A stretch of 28,767 nucleotides of DNA from a virus. Taxonomy: Duplodnaviria; Heunggongvirae; Uroviricota; Caudoviricetes. Position 1 is the stretch's first letter, and each line of letters begins with the position of its first letter. The DNA is taken from the IMG/VR virus record IMGVR_UViG_2778261058_000020, one strand, 5' to 3'. The notes below the pieces were generated by a model. It made no database searches, was not told where the DNA came from, and worked only from the letters and a program-made list of their open reading frames with translations. A program made the position numbers and the translations under genes. This document shows, piece after piece, positions 2,037-6,913 of the stretch.

Positions 2037-2975
2037 ATGAATATTTCCGATATTCGCGCAGGACTGCGCACGCTTGTAGAAAGTGAAAAAACAACTTATG
2101 CACAAATTGCCCGCGAGTCCGGCGTGGCCGCAGGAACGTTAAGCGCATTCGTGAATAACAAGTACAACGGCGACAATGACCGTGTCGCGCAGACGCTGGA
2201 ACGCTGGCTGGAGAACTATCACCGCGCCGCAGAGCTGCCAGAACCCCCGCGTTTTGTGGAAACCAGAACAGCACGCCAAATCTGGACGAGTATGCGTTTT
2301 GCCAGTCTGACTGAAAGTATTTCTGTTATCTGCGGTAATCCAGGTGTGGGAAAAACTGAAGCGGCCCGCGAATTTCGGCGCACCAATAACAATGTCTGGA
2401 TGATCACCATTACCCCATCCTGTGCCAGTGTTCTGGAATGCCTGACTGAACTGGCTTATGAACTGGGAATGAATGACGCACCGCGCCGTAAGGGGCCACT
2501 CTCCCGCGCTTTGCGACGCCGCCTTGAAGGTACGCAGGGGCTGGTCATTATCGACGAAGCTGATCATCTTGGCGCTGAGGTTCTGGAAGAACTCCGCCTG
2601 TTACAGGAATCCGCCCGTATTGGTCTTGTTCTGATGGGGAATCACCGTGTTTATTCAAACATGACCGGTGGTAACAGAACGGTTGAATTTGCCCGCCTGT
2701 TTTCCCGTATTGCAAAGCGGACGGCAATTAATAAAACCAAAATTGATGATGTAAAAGCCATTGCGGATGCCTGGCAAATTACCGGCGAAAACGAGCGGGA
2801 ATTATTACAGCAGATTGCACAAAAGCCAGGTGCGCTTCGCATCCTGAACCACTCGCTGCGCCTTGCTGCCATGACCGCCCACGGTAAAGGTGAACGTGTT
2901 AATGAAGATTATCTGCGTCAGGCTTTCCGTGAATTAGACCTGGACGTTGATATTTCAACCCTGCTGCGCACGTAA
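2037..2975 (+). CDS. B: Transposition ATPase / target DNA activator MuB (312 aa)
   Basis: Track ORF; GAGG-type RBS upstream of ATG; Walker A GNPGVGKT and Walker [10 protein letters not shown]; length and position immediately after A as in Mu. Confidence 0.9.
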
Positions 2976-2988
2976 GGAGAGCGAAATC

Positions 2989-3216
2989 ATGATGTCACGG
3001 AATATCAAAATGGCAACGGAAGTAAAGAGCTGGTTACAAGAGCGCGGCAGCCACGTCAACGAATCCTGGCTGGGCGTAGCCCGCCCGGTGCTTGAAATCA
3101 CCTGCCCACCACCGGAGCTTGTCAGGAATGCTGTCAGGATTATGGAGCATAAATCAGGGGTTGCCCGTTCAGTATGGACGGCCCGTCTTAATGGTTGTCA
3201 GATTATCTGGAGATGA
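2989..3216 (+). CDS. kil: Kil-like small early protein (about 75 aa); start chosen at internal ATG after GGAG, track ORF starts 2947
   Basis: Small ORF immediately downstream of B, as kil is in Mu; GGAG just after the B stop codon precedes ATGATG at 2989. Confidence 0.5.
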
Positions 3217-3219
3217 AAG

Positions 3220-3501
3220 ATGAAAAAAATTACGGCTTATGTCTGGGCCAGTGGCCTGATTGAATTTGGCGATAAGGTTCCTGATGGTGCCTTACCAGTC
3301 ATCAGCGGCGAAGAAAAAGCGGTAAAAGATGCAATTGAAGTACTCGCGCGACATTCCCGAACATCTCCGGTGCAATTGCTGGTTCCTGGTATCCCGGAAG
3401 CGCCAAATCAGAGACTGGCACAAAAGGCATTAATTAAGTTTTGTCGTGATGTCAGATTCAGGGTTACACGTCCACGTAAGGCAGGCGTAAGACATAAATA
3501 A
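3220..3501 (+). CDS. Hypothetical early protein (93 aa), basic C-terminus
   Basis: Track ORF; GGAG upstream of ATG; starts 4 nt after the kil stop codon. Confidence 0.55.
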   Translation: MKKITAYVWASGLIEFGDKVPDGALPVISGEEKAVKDAIEVLARHSRTSPVQLLVPGIPEAPNQRLAQKALIKFCRDVRFRVTRPRKAGVRHK

Positions 3502-3542
3502 ATCCTGCGATATGACAAATGATATTAGAAAGGAGAAACAAA

Positions 3543-3812
3543 ATGGCAAAAGTAATCTTTGAATTTAACCGCATGGAAGATGTTGAGTTTCAAAAAAAAG
3601 GAGGTTTCTTTGTAGGGATGAGTGTGCAACTGGAAGAACAGTCACCTGATGCACAAATAGGACCGCATGACGTGATGGCAGGCATTATCAAGAGCATGGC
3701 TCCTGAAATTATTGAAAAAGCAACCCAGGAGTTGTTGAAGTCAGCCAGAGAACTTGGGCTGGAAGCCGAAGGCGAGTTATTCCGGTATAACCCGGATGCA
3801 GCCAAACATTAA
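3543..3812 (+). CDS. Hypothetical small acidic early protein (about 90 aa)
   Basis: AGGAG a few nt upstream of ATG 3543 (track ORF starts at 3519); many Glu/Asp residues by eye. Confidence 0.55.
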   Translation: MAKVIFEFNRMEDVEFQKKGGFFVGMSVQLEEQSPDAQIGPHDVMAGIIKSMAPEIIEKATQELLKSARELGLEAEGELFRYNPDAAKH

Positions 3813-3828
3813 TTTCAGGGAAGGAGGC

Positions 3829-4119
3829 ATGATGATAATCCCTCGCAAAAGATGGTCACGCGAAGACCGGGAATTTATCGAAGCCAACGTCGGAAAAATG
3901 ACCGTCGAGGAAATGGCGAAAAAACTGAACGTTGCCCCAACCGCCCTACAGGCACATGCCAGAAGGCACGGAATATCGTTGTGTGCATACCGGGTCAGTG
4001 AGCACGACAAATATTTGTGTCGTGAACTTTATAAAGAAGGGCTGGCTATTCATGTCATTGCCCAAAAGATGGAATTAAGCAATCGTGCTGTATCCAGCAT
4101 TGTATACAGCGAATATTAA
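3829..4119 (+). CDS. Hypothetical DNA-binding protein with two helix-turn-helix-like segments (about 97 aa)
   Basis: GGAGG upstream of ATGATG at 3829 (track ORF 3754..4119); segments MTVEEMAKKLNVAPTALQAHARRHG and LAIHVIAQKMELSNRAVSSIV resemble HTH motifs. Confidence 0.5.
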   Translation: MMIIPRKRWSREDREFIEANVGKMTVEEMAKKLNVAPTALQAHARRHGISLCAYRVSEHDKYLCRELYKEGLAIHVIAQKMELSNRAVSSIVYSEY

Positions 4120-4139
4120 TTAACAGGAGCTTTATTTAT

Positions 4140-4664
4140 ATGGCTAAACCAGCAAAACGAATCAAGAACGCCGCAGCGGCTTATGTTCCGCAATCCCGCG
4201 ATGCCGTGGTATGTGATATCCGCCGGATTGGTGACCTGCAACGCGAAGCGGCACGACTTGAAACGGAAATGAATGACGCTATCGCTGAGATTACGGAGAA
4301 ATACGCCTCACAGATTGCACCTCTTAAAACCAGTATTGAAACCATTTCAAAAGGCGTTCAGGGATGGTGTGAAGCGAACCGCGACGAACTGACGAACGGT
4401 GGCAAGGTGAAGACGGCAAACCTGGTAACCGGCGATGTGTCATGGCGTCAGCGCCCGCCATCGGTAAGTATTCGCGGTGTGGATGCGGTGATGGAAACGC
4501 TGGAGCGTCTTGGCCTGCAACGCTTTATTCGCACGAAACAGGAAATCAACAAGGAAGCGATTTTACTGGAACCGAAAGCGGTCGCAGGTGTTGCCGGAAT
4601 TACAGTTAAATCGGGCATTGAAGATTTTTCTATTATTCCGTTTGAACAGGAAGCCGGTATTTAA
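4140..4664 (+). CDS. gam: Host-nuclease inhibitor Gam (Ku-like, RecBCD inhibitor), 174 aa
   Basis: Track ORF; AGGAG RBS; sequence MAKPAKRIKNAAAAYVPQSRDAV ... IEDFSIIPFEQEAGI matches Mu Gam as I recall it, same length. Confidence 0.85.
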   Translation: MAKPAKRIKNAAAAYVPQSRDAVVCDIRRIGDLQREAARLETEMNDAIAEITEKYASQIAPLKTSIETISKGVQGWCEANRDELTNGGKVKTANLVTGDVSWRQRPPSVSIRGVDAVMETLERLGLQRFIRTKQEINKEAILLEPKAVAGVAGITVKSGIEDFSIIPFEQEAGI

Positions 4665-4704
4665 TACCACCACGAATATTTAATTAATTCACTTTCTTTT
4701 AATT

Positions 4705-4989
4705 ATGGCGCGATGCGTCAGGGGATTGCTCGCGCCTGAATCTGAAATGGTGATGTTTATGACCACAAAGAGTGAACGACAAAAAACAGAAATAACAGCA
4801 GCAACGCTGATTAAAGACAGCGCCGAATGTCTGGCATCAGTACCTGCATTGATTCAACAGGCGAATGCAAAAAATCTCCGTCGCGCAGCTTCGTTTATTC
4901 GTGCAGGCATTACCCGCCAGATGATGATTGCGCAGCTGTGTATGCGCGAAGCACAGCGTCTGGAACAGATGGAGACGAGCGGTGATTAA
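4705..4989 (+). CDS. Hypothetical small protein; true start uncertain (ATG 4705, 4747 or 4759)
   Basis: Track ORF; several in-frame ATGs; GGTGA-like RBS precedes the ATG at 4759. Confidence 0.4.
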   Translation: MARCVRGLLAPESEMVMFMTTKSERQKTEITAATLIKDSAECLASVPALIQQANAKNLRRAASFIRAGITRQMMIAQLCMREAQRLEQMETSGD

Positions 4990-5179
4990 GTCAATTGGCT
5001 TTGTCCTGCTGGTTGGCACCTGCGGGAATGATGCCTGTGATGCTATCCCGGTAACAGAAAAAATCTGGCCCACAGAGCAGGCATGTATGCAGGTGATGGA
5101 GCGCATACAAAAACGTTATCCCAATGAAATCTTTTATTGCGAGGAGGTATTAAGAAATGAAAATACAGATGATTACTGA
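4982..5179 (+). CDS. Small Cys-containing protein with N-terminal hydrophobic segment, possible secreted or lipoprotein (about 65 aa, GTG start proposed)
   Basis: Track ORF 4928..5179 (TTG start); GTG at 4982 gives a GTGATTAA-type overlap with the upstream stop; N-terminus IKSIGFVLLVGTCG is hydrophobic; 4 Cys. Confidence 0.35.
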   Translation: MIKSIGFVLLVGTCGNDACDAIPVTEKIWPTEQACMQVMERIQKRYPNEIFYCEEVLRNENTDDY

Positions 5180-5492
5180 TGCTGATTTAATGGCTGCAAC
5201 CTTAATTTCCAGTGGCATGCCAGAACAAAAGGTAAATGATTTCCTGGATAATGTCGTATACCAGCACTATGAGCAGGCCAGAGAAAATTTAATTTCAGAA
5301 AAGCTCACGATGATTGCTGAATCATTAAGTCCTGCATGGATTATCGAAGAGTTGCGGGGAATCATTGCCAGCCAGGATAAAGTGGCGGCAGTTGCCGCCC
5401 TCGATGTGCTACAGCGAATGAGTAAAGAGCTATTCAACACTGAATTAATTTTTAAATCCGGGGGACATAATGAGCCGCACATCCCTAATTAA
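5157..5492 (+). CDS. Hypothetical early protein (111 aa)
   Basis: Track ORF; strong GAGGAGG RBS upstream of ATG 5157; 3' end overlaps the gemA start. Confidence 0.5.
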   Translation: MKIQMITDADLMAATLISSGMPEQKVNDFLDNVVYQHYEQARENLISEKLTMIAESLSPAWIIEELRGIIASQDKVAAVAALDVLQRMSKELFNTELIFKSGGHNEPHIPN

Positions 5493-6021: not shown

Positions 6022-6419
6022 AAGAGCAGGATTTATTTGGTGATTATCAGGACGACAGTATCCTTGAATATTTTGATGATGTTCAGGAAAAATCGGGATT
6101 TCCATCTTTACTGGCTGAGCTGAATGCTCTGTTGCGACAAGAGCTGATAAGGCTTGGAGTTAACCCTGCCCACTCCCTTGAGCTGGTAGTGGCGATTTGC
6201 AATCATATCGGTGGGATTCAGGTATATGTTCCGAAAGGGAAAATACTGGAAAATCTTATCAGAGACATGCGCATCTGGCGTGATTTTGATGGGAAAAACG
6301 TAGCGGAGCTGGTGCAGCGTTACAAAGTGACATACAAAACGGTATATCAGGCCATCAAAAGAATGCGCCGACTGGAGCGTGGAAAGTATCAAATGCAACT
6401 ATTTAAGGACGAACAATGA
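6018..6419 (+). CDS. mor: Mor/C-family transcription activator (middle operon regulator-like), 133 aa
   Basis: Track ORF; C-terminal GGIQVYVPKG linker followed by an HTH (VAELVQRYKVTYKTVYQAIKRMRR) typical of the Mor/C family; follows gemA as in Mu. Confidence 0.8.
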   Translation: MKEQDLFGDYQDDSILEYFDDVQEKSGFPSLLAELNALLRQELIRLGVNPAHSLELVVAICNHIGGIQVYVPKGKILENLIRDMRIWRDFDGKNVAELVQRYKVTYKTVYQAIKRMRRLERGKYQMQLFKDEQ

Positions 6420-6913
6420 AATATCTTCCCCTTATTCTTTTACTAACTGTTACTACTGTACAAGCGGCGGATACATTCCAGCAAAAAGTCAAAGATGTTT
6501 TTCAGAAAAAAACATCCGTTGACTATACCGACTGGTACGGTAAAGGTGACGCTGCCATTGCTGAGTTTAAAGGATTTAACTTAGGTGTATATCAGGATTT
6601 AAAGACGTCTGTGCGAGATAACGAAATCAACATAAAAATGCAGTATGTTACAGGACCGGTTCGCCCCGATAGCGACGAGTTCGCTCAAATGACGTCTGCT
6701 TTATGTGAAACTGTTTTTGAGCCTTTTGTTGTCCCTGATTATGTTCGCCCGACATCATGGGACGATGATACCCCAGCCCCGCTGAATTTCATGCAAGTTA
6801 AAAATTTAAAGCAAGCTGAAGATGATCCTGTCGAAAAAACAGTAAATGGCTGGAAGATAAAAATTGATCGTTCAGTAATGAAGACTACGTGTTCTGCCCG
6901 TAAAGTTAACTGA
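6416..6913 (+). CDS. Secreted (periplasmic) protein of unknown function with cleavable signal peptide, 165 aa
   Basis: Track ORF; N-terminus MKYLPLILLLTVTTVQA followed by ADT (AXA-type cleavage site); ATGA overlap with the mor stop; coding sequence looks AT-richer than its neighbours. Confidence 0.6.
   Translation: MKYLPLILLLTVTTVQAADTFQQKVKDVFQKKTSVDYTDWYGKGDAAIAEFKGFNLGVYQDLKTSVRDNEINIKMQYVTGPVRPDSDEFAQMTSALCETVFEPFVVPDYVRPTSWDDDTPAPLNFMQVKNLKQAEDDPVEKTVNGWKIKIDRSVMKTTCSARKVN

What the first reader, a model, noticed from the sequence alone, without database searches (positions are those of the whole stretch)
3220..4119. Uncharacterised three-gene cluster between kil and gam: basic protein, small acidic protein, tandem-HTH protein
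Three tightly packed ORFs with good RBSs lie in the semi-essential early block, where Mu-type phages keep host-takeover and counter-defence genes (kil and gam flank them). The middle product is small and acidic, the last has two HTH-like segments. A small acidic protein followed by an HTH regulator is the arrangement seen at anti-CRISPR (acr-aca) and other anti-defence loci. I recognise none of the three as a known family.
Basis: partly seen in the sequence, partly recalled or inferred. Interest (0 to 1): 0.55.

Follow-up and report, generated by a model that had tools for sequence, protein, structure and literature searches.

The report
Three accessory early genes of Mu-like prophage
The three small genes between kil and gam are real but ordinary accessory early genes of a Mu-type prophage: two match long-catalogued Mu/D108 genes of unknown function. 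The third belongs to a large, misnamed phage family that usually sits next to the DNA-end-protection gene, and nothing supports an anti-CRISPR-style operon.

Summary
Three tightly packed, same-strand ORFs with ribosome-binding sites fill 3220-4119. They are basic (pI 10.3), acidic (pI 4.8) and two-HTH-like, and all are under purifying selection (dN/dS 0.13-0.26).

They are not unrecognisable:
- **orfC** is Mu gp9/E8 (87% identity). It is present in about 90 of about 92 E. coli genomes that carry this prophage type.
- **orfB** is D108 gp7 (76%). It belongs to a fast-diverging family that probably includes Mu gp7.
- **orfA** has no Mu or D108 counterpart. It belongs to PHROG 1518, with at least 1,018 clusters at 50% identity, no Pfam family, and a confident model without a significant fold match.

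orfA's database name, "host nuclease inhibitor", traces to D3112 and MP38 records in which 1-nt deletions fuse it to gam. That is an inference from the records, so the name is not functional evidence.

orfA-like genes do lie almost only in transposable-phage early regions, and they sit closer to Gam or DUF3164 than random placement predicts.

The kil-gam interval is a mosaic cassette site, and the three genes occur independently and in different orders. I found no promoter, operator or terminator, and no similarity to Aca1 or AcrIF1. The acr-aca analogy is therefore unsupported, although an anti-defence or host-takeover role is not excluded. All three functions remain unknown.

The parts
2989..3216 (+). 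kil, the left anchor of the cassette interval
   Evidence: 85% identical to Mu and D108 Kil. Its 3' end is the conserved left junction of the variable slot.
3220..3501 (+). orfA, 93 aa, basic. A stand-alone member of PHROG 1518, which databases name 'host nuclease inhibitor protein'. It is absent from Mu and D108.
   Evidence: PHROG 1518 at E 1e-36, with no Pfam or NCBIfam family. 157 close clusters and 1,018 representatives at 50% identity. AF2 pLDDT 89, with no significant fold match. Present in only 2 of 5,426 complete E. coli genomes. dN/dS 0.13-0.21.
3502..3542 (+). orfA-orfB spacer, containing the conserved gp7 ribosome-binding site; this is the right junction of slot 1
   Evidence: Alignment of the window with loci that carry nothing, gp6 or orfA in this slot. 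No promoter or inverted repeat found.
3543..3812 (+). orfB, 89 aa, acidic. Orthologue of D108 gp7 (PHROG 2230).
   Evidence: 76% identical to D108 gp7 and PHROG 2230 at E 4e-36. About 40 clusters, nearly all E. coli or Salmonella. Mu gp7 is a probable remote homologue (hhalign 81%, E 1e-5). The AF2 model is poor (pLDDT 55).
3832..4119 (+). orfC, 95 aa (96 from the ATG at 3829). Orthologue of Mu gp9 / protein E8, a small two-HTH protein.
   Evidence: 87% identical to Mu and D108 gp9. PHROG 323 'transcriptional regulator, D5-like' at E 1.5e-27. Sub-threshold HTH matches in two segments. Best PDB sequence match is the two-HTH chain 2lvs_A at E 0.0036. Present in 90 of 5,426 E. coli genomes, which is nearly every Mu-type locus.
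4140..4664 (+). gam, the right anchor of the interval (DNA-end-binding protein)
   Evidence: PF07352 at E 3e-43 and 92% identity to Mu Gam.

Best explanation
The interval holds three independent, non-essential early genes of a Mu-family (Muvirus) prophage. They are co-transcribed with A, B, kil and gam on the long early transcript from Pe. They are not a self-contained operon.

**Shown.**
- orfC is the Mu gp9/E8 orthologue and is a near-universal component of this prophage type.
- orfB is the D108-type gp7, from a fast-diverging family that holds the same position in Mu.
- orfA is a rare acquisition in E. coli. It fills a cassette slot between the kil stop codon and the gp7 ribosome-binding site; that slot is empty in most relatives and holds gp6 in Mu.
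- orfA belongs to a very large proteobacterial family found almost only in transposable-phage early regions, close to Gam or DUF3164.

**Inferred.**
- gp9 is a small two-HTH DNA-binding protein made early in lytic growth. It acts on phage or host DNA, not as an autorepressor of its own small operon.
- gp7/orfB is a host-interaction protein, judged from its narrow range and rapid divergence.
- orfA works in the same functional module as the DNA-end protein, for example handling DNA ends, a host nuclease or a host repair or defence factor.
- orfA's database name is annotation carry-over, not evidence of function.
For: - **Orthology:**
- **Mosaic slot structure:** kil-[none | gp6 | orfA]-gp7(Mu or D108 type)-[gp8 | none]-gp9-gam, with conserved junctions.
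- **Prevalence in complete E. coli genomes:** gp9 in 90, orfA in 2.
- **No internal promoter, terminator or operator:** promoter-like sites are at the level expected from shuffles and lie only on the - strand. Transcription of this region from Pe is stated in PMC3325207 and PMC3820752.
- **Purifying selection on all three:**
- **orfA family context, genome loci:** 67 of 80 loci (one per species) carry MuA, MuB, GemA or Mor, and 61 carry Gam or DUF3164.
- **orfA family context, IMG/VR:** of 56 distinct loci, 53 have Mu markers and 52 have Gam or DUF3164.
- **Proximity to Gam/DUF3164:** median gap 315 bp against 871 bp for random placement between MuB and GemA; 23 of 67 loci are directly adjacent and both orders occur.
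- **Casadabanvirus:** the gam stop and the orfA-like start are 1 nt apart.
- **Origin of the name:** the D3112 and MP38 'gam' entries are 266-aa fusions created by 1-nt deletions.
Against: - No function is demonstrated for any of the three genes, so the mechanistic part rests on context alone.
- In this window orfA is separated from gam by two genes (638 bp).
- orfA occurs with two unrelated partners (Gam or DUF3164; hhalign probability 0.2%). That argues against a specific physical partnership.
- About 20% of genome loci show neither partner.
- The proximity statistic is not corrected for shared ancestry.
- The consensus promoter scan cannot exclude a weak or non-sigma-70 internal promoter.
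- gp9's HTH assignment rests on sub-threshold matches, and no structure was predicted for it.
Confidence: 0.7

Rival explanations
1. Anti-defence locus of the acr-aca type. orfB and/or orfA inhibit a host immune system, and the downstream HTH protein gp9 represses their transcription.
For: - A conserved HTH gene sits downstream of a variable set of small genes.
- orfB is small, acidic and fast-diverging, at 22-31% identity between genera where orfA keeps 51-69%.
- The block lies between the host-directed genes kil and gam.
Against: - No promoter-like site on the + strand and no operator-like inverted repeat. The spacers are 3-41 nt, against 110 nt ahead of acrIF1 in JBD30.
- No similarity of orfC to Aca1 or of orfB to AcrIF1.
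- gp9 also occurs without orfA or orfB upstream, and orfA and orfB occur without gp9.
- In Mu-like Pseudomonas phages the known acr-aca locus is in the late region (JBD30 genes 35 and 36, from my own knowledge), not here.
Confidence: 0.1
2. orfA is what its database name says: a direct inhibitor of a host nuclease such as RecBCD, acting beside or in place of Gam.
For: - NCBI and PHROG name the family 'host nuclease inhibitor'.
- It is tightly linked to gam in many phages and translationally coupled to it in Casadabanvirus.
- It also sits upstream of exonuclease VIII and RecT in the non-Mu Burkholderia phage KL4.
Against: - The name traces to D3112/MP38 entries where a frameshift joins the true Gam (PF07352, residues 19-156) to the orfA-like part (residues 174-248).
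- orfA gives no match to the Pfam Mu Gam model.
- No experimental paper on the family was found.
- Phages with orfA nearly always keep Gam or DUF3164 as well, so orfA does not replace it.
Confidence: 0.15
3. The ORFs, or some of them, are not genes: chance reading frames in a transcribed spacer.
For: The ORFs are short. orfB could not be modelled with confidence.
Against: Each has a ribosome-binding site, dN/dS of 0.13-0.26, tens to thousands of homologues and a conserved position in related prophages.
Confidence: 0.01

Closest known systems
Phage Mu gp9 (protein E8, Mup09) and D108 gp9
   Same: orfC is 87% identical over the whole length, sits in the same position immediately upstream of gam, and belongs to the same PHROG 323.
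   Different: The N-terminal 4-5 residues differ, and the start is annotated four codons later than in Mu. The function of Mu gp9 is itself unknown.
Phage D108 gp7 (PHROG 2230), with Mu gp7 (PHROG 10252) as a distant relative
   Same: orfB is 76% identical to D108 gp7, has the same length (89 aa) and holds the same slot, with the conserved start MAKVI and a C-terminal His.
   Different: Mu gp7 is related only at profile level (hhalign 81%). Function is unknown in every case.
PHROG 1518, the 'host nuclease inhibitor protein' family (for example JBD93 gp13, DMS3-12, HW12 gp15, and the C-terminal part of D3112/MP38 'Gam')
   Same: orfA shares the family motifs (WASGLIEFG, PxGALP, ARH, LLVPG[IV]PEA), the length and the early-region position.
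   Different: In this window orfA follows kil and is two genes away from gam. In Pseudomonas phages it directly follows gam, and in Erwiniaceae prophages it directly precedes it. The basic C-terminal tail is not conserved across the family.
acr-aca operons (for example JBD30 acrIF1-aca1)
   Same: Small variable genes lie upstream of a conserved small HTH gene in a Mu-like phage.
   Different: There is no dedicated promoter or operator, no sequence similarity to Aca1 or AcrIF1, the genome region differs (early operon versus late region), and the genes are not co-inherited.
Mu Gam (PF07352, a Ku-like DNA-end binder)
   Same: Genomic neighbour of orfA-like genes across transposable phages, and the two share a database name.
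   Different: No sequence or fold relationship was found. orfA gives no PF07352 match, and its model is a small beta-beta-beta-alpha...alpha domain.
MbtH-like proteins (nearest solved fold for orfA)
   Different: The score is marginal, identity is 14%, only about half of orfA is aligned, Foldseek finds nothing, and the biological context is unrelated.

Membership tests
Mu gp9 / E8 family (PHROG 323) | Full-length sequence similarity to Mu gp9 | tested here: met
   87% identity over 95 aa at E 9e-61; PHROG 323 at E 1.5e-27.
Mu gp9 / E8 family (PHROG 323) | Position immediately upstream of gam in the early operon | tested here: met
   orfC ends at 4119 and gam starts at 4140. The order is the same in Mu, D108 and E. 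coli prophages.
D108 gp7 family (PHROG 2230) | Full-length sequence similarity and the same slot after kil/gp6 | tested here: met
   76% identity over 89 aa; PHROG 2230 at E 3.7e-36, covering profile positions 1-89 of 89.
PHROG 1518 ('host nuclease inhibitor protein') | Profile match and family motifs (G12, P21, G23, R44, VPGxPEA) | tested here: met
   E 1e-36 over residues 1-92. Invariant and near-invariant columns are present in orfA.
PHROG 1518 ('host nuclease inhibitor protein') | Nuclease-inhibiting activity, as implied by the name | not testable with these tools
   No experimental report was found. The name traces to frameshift fusions with gam in D3112 and MP38.
Mu Gam family (PF07352) | Match of orfA to the Gam profile | tested here: not met
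   orfA has no Pfam family at E <= 1. In D3112 'Gam' the PF07352 match covers residues 19-156 and the orfA-like part covers 174-248.
acr-aca operon | Dedicated promoter with an inverted-repeat operator upstream of the small gene(s) | tested here: not met
   No + strand promoter-like site in 2800-4900, and no inverted repeat upstream of orfA or orfB. Spacers are 3-41 nt.
acr-aca operon | HTH protein belonging to a known Aca family | tested here: inconclusive
   No similarity to JBD30 Aca1 by BLASTP or by the orfC profile.
acr-aca operon | Upstream protein homologous to a known Acr | tested here: inconclusive
   No similarity to AcrIF1 and no informative PHROG annotation. No Acr library was available.
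acr-aca operon | Variable small genes upstream of a conserved HTH gene | tested here: met
   gp9 is in 90 E. coli genomes, orfA in 2, and gp6 and gp8 are present or absent.
acr-aca operon | Inhibition of a CRISPR-Cas or other defence system | not testable with these tools
   This needs expression and plaque assays.
DNA-mimic anti-restriction proteins (Ocr or ArdA type) | Strongly acidic surface (typical pI near 4 and a large net negative charge) and a mimic fold | tested here: inconclusive
   orfB has pI 4.83 and net charge -6 over 89 aa, which is only moderately acidic. The model is too poor (pLDDT 55) to judge the fold.
Archaeal Cbp1/Cbp2 tandem-HTH repeat-binding proteins | Score above the NCBIfam cut-off for NF040595 | tested here: not met
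   19.1 bits against a cut-off of 140. 2lvs_A matches at E 0.0036 only. This is a resemblance in architecture, not membership.
Known anti-phage defence proteins (PADLOC) | Match to any defence-system model | tested here: not met
   No match for orfA or orfB. orfC gives a stray 14-bit match to a GajB model.

The most novel reading that the evidence does not exclude
The orfA family (PHROG 1518) has at least 1,018 clusters at 50% identity across Proteobacteria, no Pfam entry, a confident model without a significant fold match, and a name that rests on frameshifted records. On the most novel reading it would be a new kind of transposable-phage factor, functionally coupled to the DNA-end-binding module (Gam or its positional analogue DUF3164). 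For example, it could block a host nuclease or an immune system that senses protected DNA ends, such as Gabija. The kil-gam interval would then be a counter-defence cassette site, with gp7 as a fast-evolving effector and gp9 as its DNA-binding companion.
Probability: 0.2. Interest if true: 0.65.

Novelty: new member of a known kind. Interest (0 to 1): 0.33.

Why it matters
As written, the finding adds little. Unassigned ORFs in the Mu semi-essential region have been known for decades, and two of the three are catalogued Mu/D108 genes.

What is useful is a correction and a lead. Thousands of database entries called "host nuclease inhibitor protein" appear to carry a name that arose from frameshifted D3112 and MP38 gam records. 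Yet the family is a hallmark of transposable phages and keeps close to Gam or DUF3164 through many rearrangements. Phage Mu lacks this gene, which may explain why the family has not been studied.

Recent work shows that Mu-type Gam makes phages visible to Gabija (PMC12407980). That gives a concrete experiment for this neighbour gene, and for DUF3164, which appears to replace Gam in many Mu-like phages.

Tried and rejected
- **Profile libraries.** Pfam and NCBIfam gave nothing for orfA and orfB, and only sub-threshold HTH matches for orfC. PADLOC gave nothing meaningful.
- **Solved structures by sequence.** There were no significant matches for orfA. orfC matched only the two-HTH chain 2lvs_A at E 0.0036.
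- **orfB model.** pLDDT 55 from a shallow alignment, so no fold search was attempted.
- **Rosetta-stone reading of the D3112 Gam-orfA fusion.** Rejected as firm evidence. D3112 and MP38 carry different 1-nt deletions 3 nt apart, and the downstream gam codons are still intact, while DMS3, JBD93, HW12 and Gregale have separate genes.
- **Longer family members** (P0188-P0330). Their extensions have no Pfam domain, so they give no functional hint.
- **Gam versus DUF3164.** hhalign found no homology (probability 0.2%).
- **Literature.** Searches on Mu gp6-gp9, "host nuclease inhibitor", JBD30 gp14, DUF3164 and the genetic functions cim, sot and arm found no functional assignment for these ORFs.
- **Other scans.** Rfam found no RNA family in the window. 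Antisense ORFs and - strand promoter-like sites are at chance level.

Full report
**What is there.** The window is the left and central part of a Mu-type prophage. It reads transposase A (1-1998), B (2037-2975), kil (2989-3216), three small ORFs, gam (4140-4664), then gemA, mor and the late genes.

The three ORFs are orfA (3220-3501, 93 aa), orfB (3543-3812, 89 aa) and orfC (3829/3832-4119, 96/95 aa). They lie on the + strand, do not overlap, and are separated by 3, 41, 16-19 and 20 nt. Each is preceded by a GGAG or AGGAG motif.

- orfA is basic (pI 10.3), largely through a K/R-rich tail at residues 76-93.
- orfB is moderately acidic (pI 4.8, net charge -6).
- orfC gives sub-threshold HTH matches in two separate segments.

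Against E. coli relatives, dN/dS is 0.13-0.26 for all three, so they are genuine genes.

**Identity of the genes.** orfC is 87% identical to gp9 (old name E8) of Mu and D108. orfB is 76% identical to D108 gp7. orfA matches nothing in Mu or D108.

PHROG assignments agree:

| ORF | PHROG family | E-value | PHROG description |
|---|---|---|---|
| orfC | 323 | 1.5e-27 | transcriptional regulator, D5-like |
| orfB | 2230 | 3.7e-36 | unknown function |
| orfA | 1518 | 1e-36 | host nuclease inhibitor |

Mu gp7, which looks like an unrelated allele, is a probable remote homologue of the orfB family (hhalign 81%, E 1e-5 over 73 columns). The family diverges fast, at 22-31% identity between enterobacterial genera.

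The claim that none of the three belongs to a known family is therefore wrong. What is true is that none has a known function. The literature describes the semi-essential region as 14 ORFs, largely uncharacterised, transcribed from Pe as part of the long early transcript (PMC3325207, PMC3820752). The genetic functions listed for it (kil, gam, sot, arm, cim, gemA/B; PMC4553209) could not be tied to these ORFs.

**The interval is a mosaic cassette site.** Annotated relatives show these arrangements:
- kil-gp7-gp9-gam in ETEC1732 and many others.
- kil-orfA-gp7-gp9-gam in this window and E. coli KFu019 (96.8% identical).
- kil-orfA-gp7-gp8-gp9-gam in OZ040490.
- kil-gp6-gp7-gp8-gp9-gam in Mu, D108 and STEC346.

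The junctions of the first slot are the last codons of kil and the gp7 ribosome-binding site and start.

Among 5,426 complete E. coli genomes, gp9 DNA is present in 90, which is nearly every Mu-type locus. orfA is present in 2.

In more distant Mu-like prophages the same three families recur in different combinations and orders:
- Salmonella and Citrobacter: kil-orfA-orfB-DUF3164.
- Erwiniaceae: kil-orfB-orfA-gam.
- Raoultella and Pluralibacter: kil-orfA-gp9-DUF3164.
- Some IMG/VR contigs: kil-gp9-orfA-gam.

The trio is therefore not a co-inherited unit.

**orfA.** This is the most informative of the three. The family is large: 157 clusters at high similarity and 1,018 representatives at 50% identity with E <= 0.001. 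It spans alpha-, beta-, gamma- and deltaproteobacteria. It has no Pfam or NCBIfam model.

Its hallmark is WASGLIEFG...PxGALP...ARH...LLVPG[IV]PEA. P21, G57 and E60 are invariant across 72 diverse members.

**Where the name comes from.** This part is an inference from the records. In D3112 and MP38 the entry called gam / "host nuclease inhibitor" is 266 aa long. PF07352 covers residues 19-156, and the orfA-like sequence, beginning with its own Met, covers 174-248.

Relative to JBD93, HW12 and DMS3, each of these two records has its own 1-nt deletion, 3 nt apart and about 50 nt before the gam stop. The normal gam C-terminal codons are still intact downstream. In the other phages gam and the orfA-like gene are separate, arranged TGAcATG.

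Stand-alone family members most likely inherited the name by similarity to these fused entries. The name is therefore not evidence of function. I found no paper that tests the family.

**Context of the orfA family.**
- Of 80 genome loci (one per species), 67 carry MuA, MuB, GemA or Mor. 17 have Gam and 44 have DUF3164 nearby, and none has both.
- Of 56 distinct IMG/VR loci, 53 have Mu markers. 26 have Gam and 26 have DUF3164, and again none has both.
- Within the MuB-GemA interval (median 4 kb) the median gap to Gam or DUF3164 is 315 bp, against 871 bp for random placement. 23 of 67 loci are directly adjacent, and both orders occur (Wilcoxon p 1e-10, not corrected for shared ancestry).
- A few members lie in non-transposable Burkholderia phages, one of them upstream of exonuclease VIII and RecT.
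- The gene is accessory in Pseudomonas phages too. JBD30 has an unrelated gene in its place.

I infer that orfA works in the same functional neighbourhood as the DNA-end protein. Gam and DUF3164 are not detectably related, so a specific physical partnership with either is doubtful.

**The acr-aca idea.** One feature fits: a conserved HTH gene downstream of variable small genes. The defining features do not fit:
- There is no + strand promoter-like site or terminator in 2800-4900 (three sites found, all on the - strand, against 3.0 expected). There is also no inverted repeat ahead of orfA or orfB.
- orfC is unrelated to Aca1 and orfB to AcrIF1, both taken from JBD30. That JBD30 genes 35 and 36 are acrIF1 and aca1 is my own knowledge.
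- gp9 occurs without either small gene, and each small gene occurs without gp9.
- No PADLOC or Rfam match changes this picture.

An anti-defence or host-takeover role for these accessory genes remains possible, particularly for the fast-evolving gp7 family, but nothing here demonstrates it.

**Verdict.** These are ordinary semi-essential early genes of a Mu-like prophage. Two are catalogued orthologues, and one belongs to a large, misnamed and unstudied family whose linkage to Gam/DUF3164 is the only real lead. Interest is low to moderate.

Noticed in passing
L010:3940-3950 (D3112) and L180:745-752 (MP38), aligned: Both records annotate a 266-aa Gam plus orfA-like fusion. Each has its own 1-nt deletion, 3 nt apart and about 50 nt before the gam stop. 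DMS3, JBD93, HW12 and Gregale have two separate genes. Either these are two old sequencing errors at one spot, or the fusions are real and recurrent.
   Followed up: partly
L017-L096 and L100-L179: Mu Gam (PF07352) and DUF3164 occupy the same early-region position and never co-occur in 136 loci. hhalign finds no homology between them (probability 0.2%). DUF3164 may be a non-homologous replacement for Gam in many Mu-like phages, and no paper characterises it.
   Followed up: partly
window 6416-6913 (+): A 165-aa ORF with an N-terminal Sec-type signal peptide (MKYLPLILLLTVTTVQA) sits between mor and the GH108 endolysin, overlapping the end of mor by 4 nt. It matches no PHROG family, so it may be a moron or a lysis-region accessory gene.
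   Followed up: no
window 4665-5470 (+): Only three small ORFs (PHROG 24376, 16556 and 1988, all of unknown function) lie between gam and gemA. Mu has gp11-gp15 here, more than 2 kb. This part of the early region is also mosaic among E. coli prophages.
   Followed up: partly
L002:2064-2327 (Mu gp7) versus alignment A7: Mu gp7 and D108 gp7, usually treated as unrelated alleles, are probable remote homologues (hhalign 81%, E 1e-5). They share the start MAKVI and a C-terminal His, so the family evolves much faster than its neighbours.
   Followed up: yes
L099:3119-3322 (JBD30 gp14); L182:596-1082 (Gregale): The slot after gam in Pseudomonas Casadabanvirus is variable. JBD30 has an unrelated 67-aa gene instead of the orfA-like gene, and Gregale has both.
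   Followed up: partly
P0188 (199 aa): One family member contains two tandem copies of the orfA-like domain. Several others carry N- or C-terminal extensions of 70-150 aa with no Pfam match.
   Followed up: partly
window 4104-4135: An imperfect palindrome (19-nt arms, 74% complementary) spans the orfC stop codon and the gam ribosome-binding site. It could affect gam translation or could be chance.
   Followed up: no
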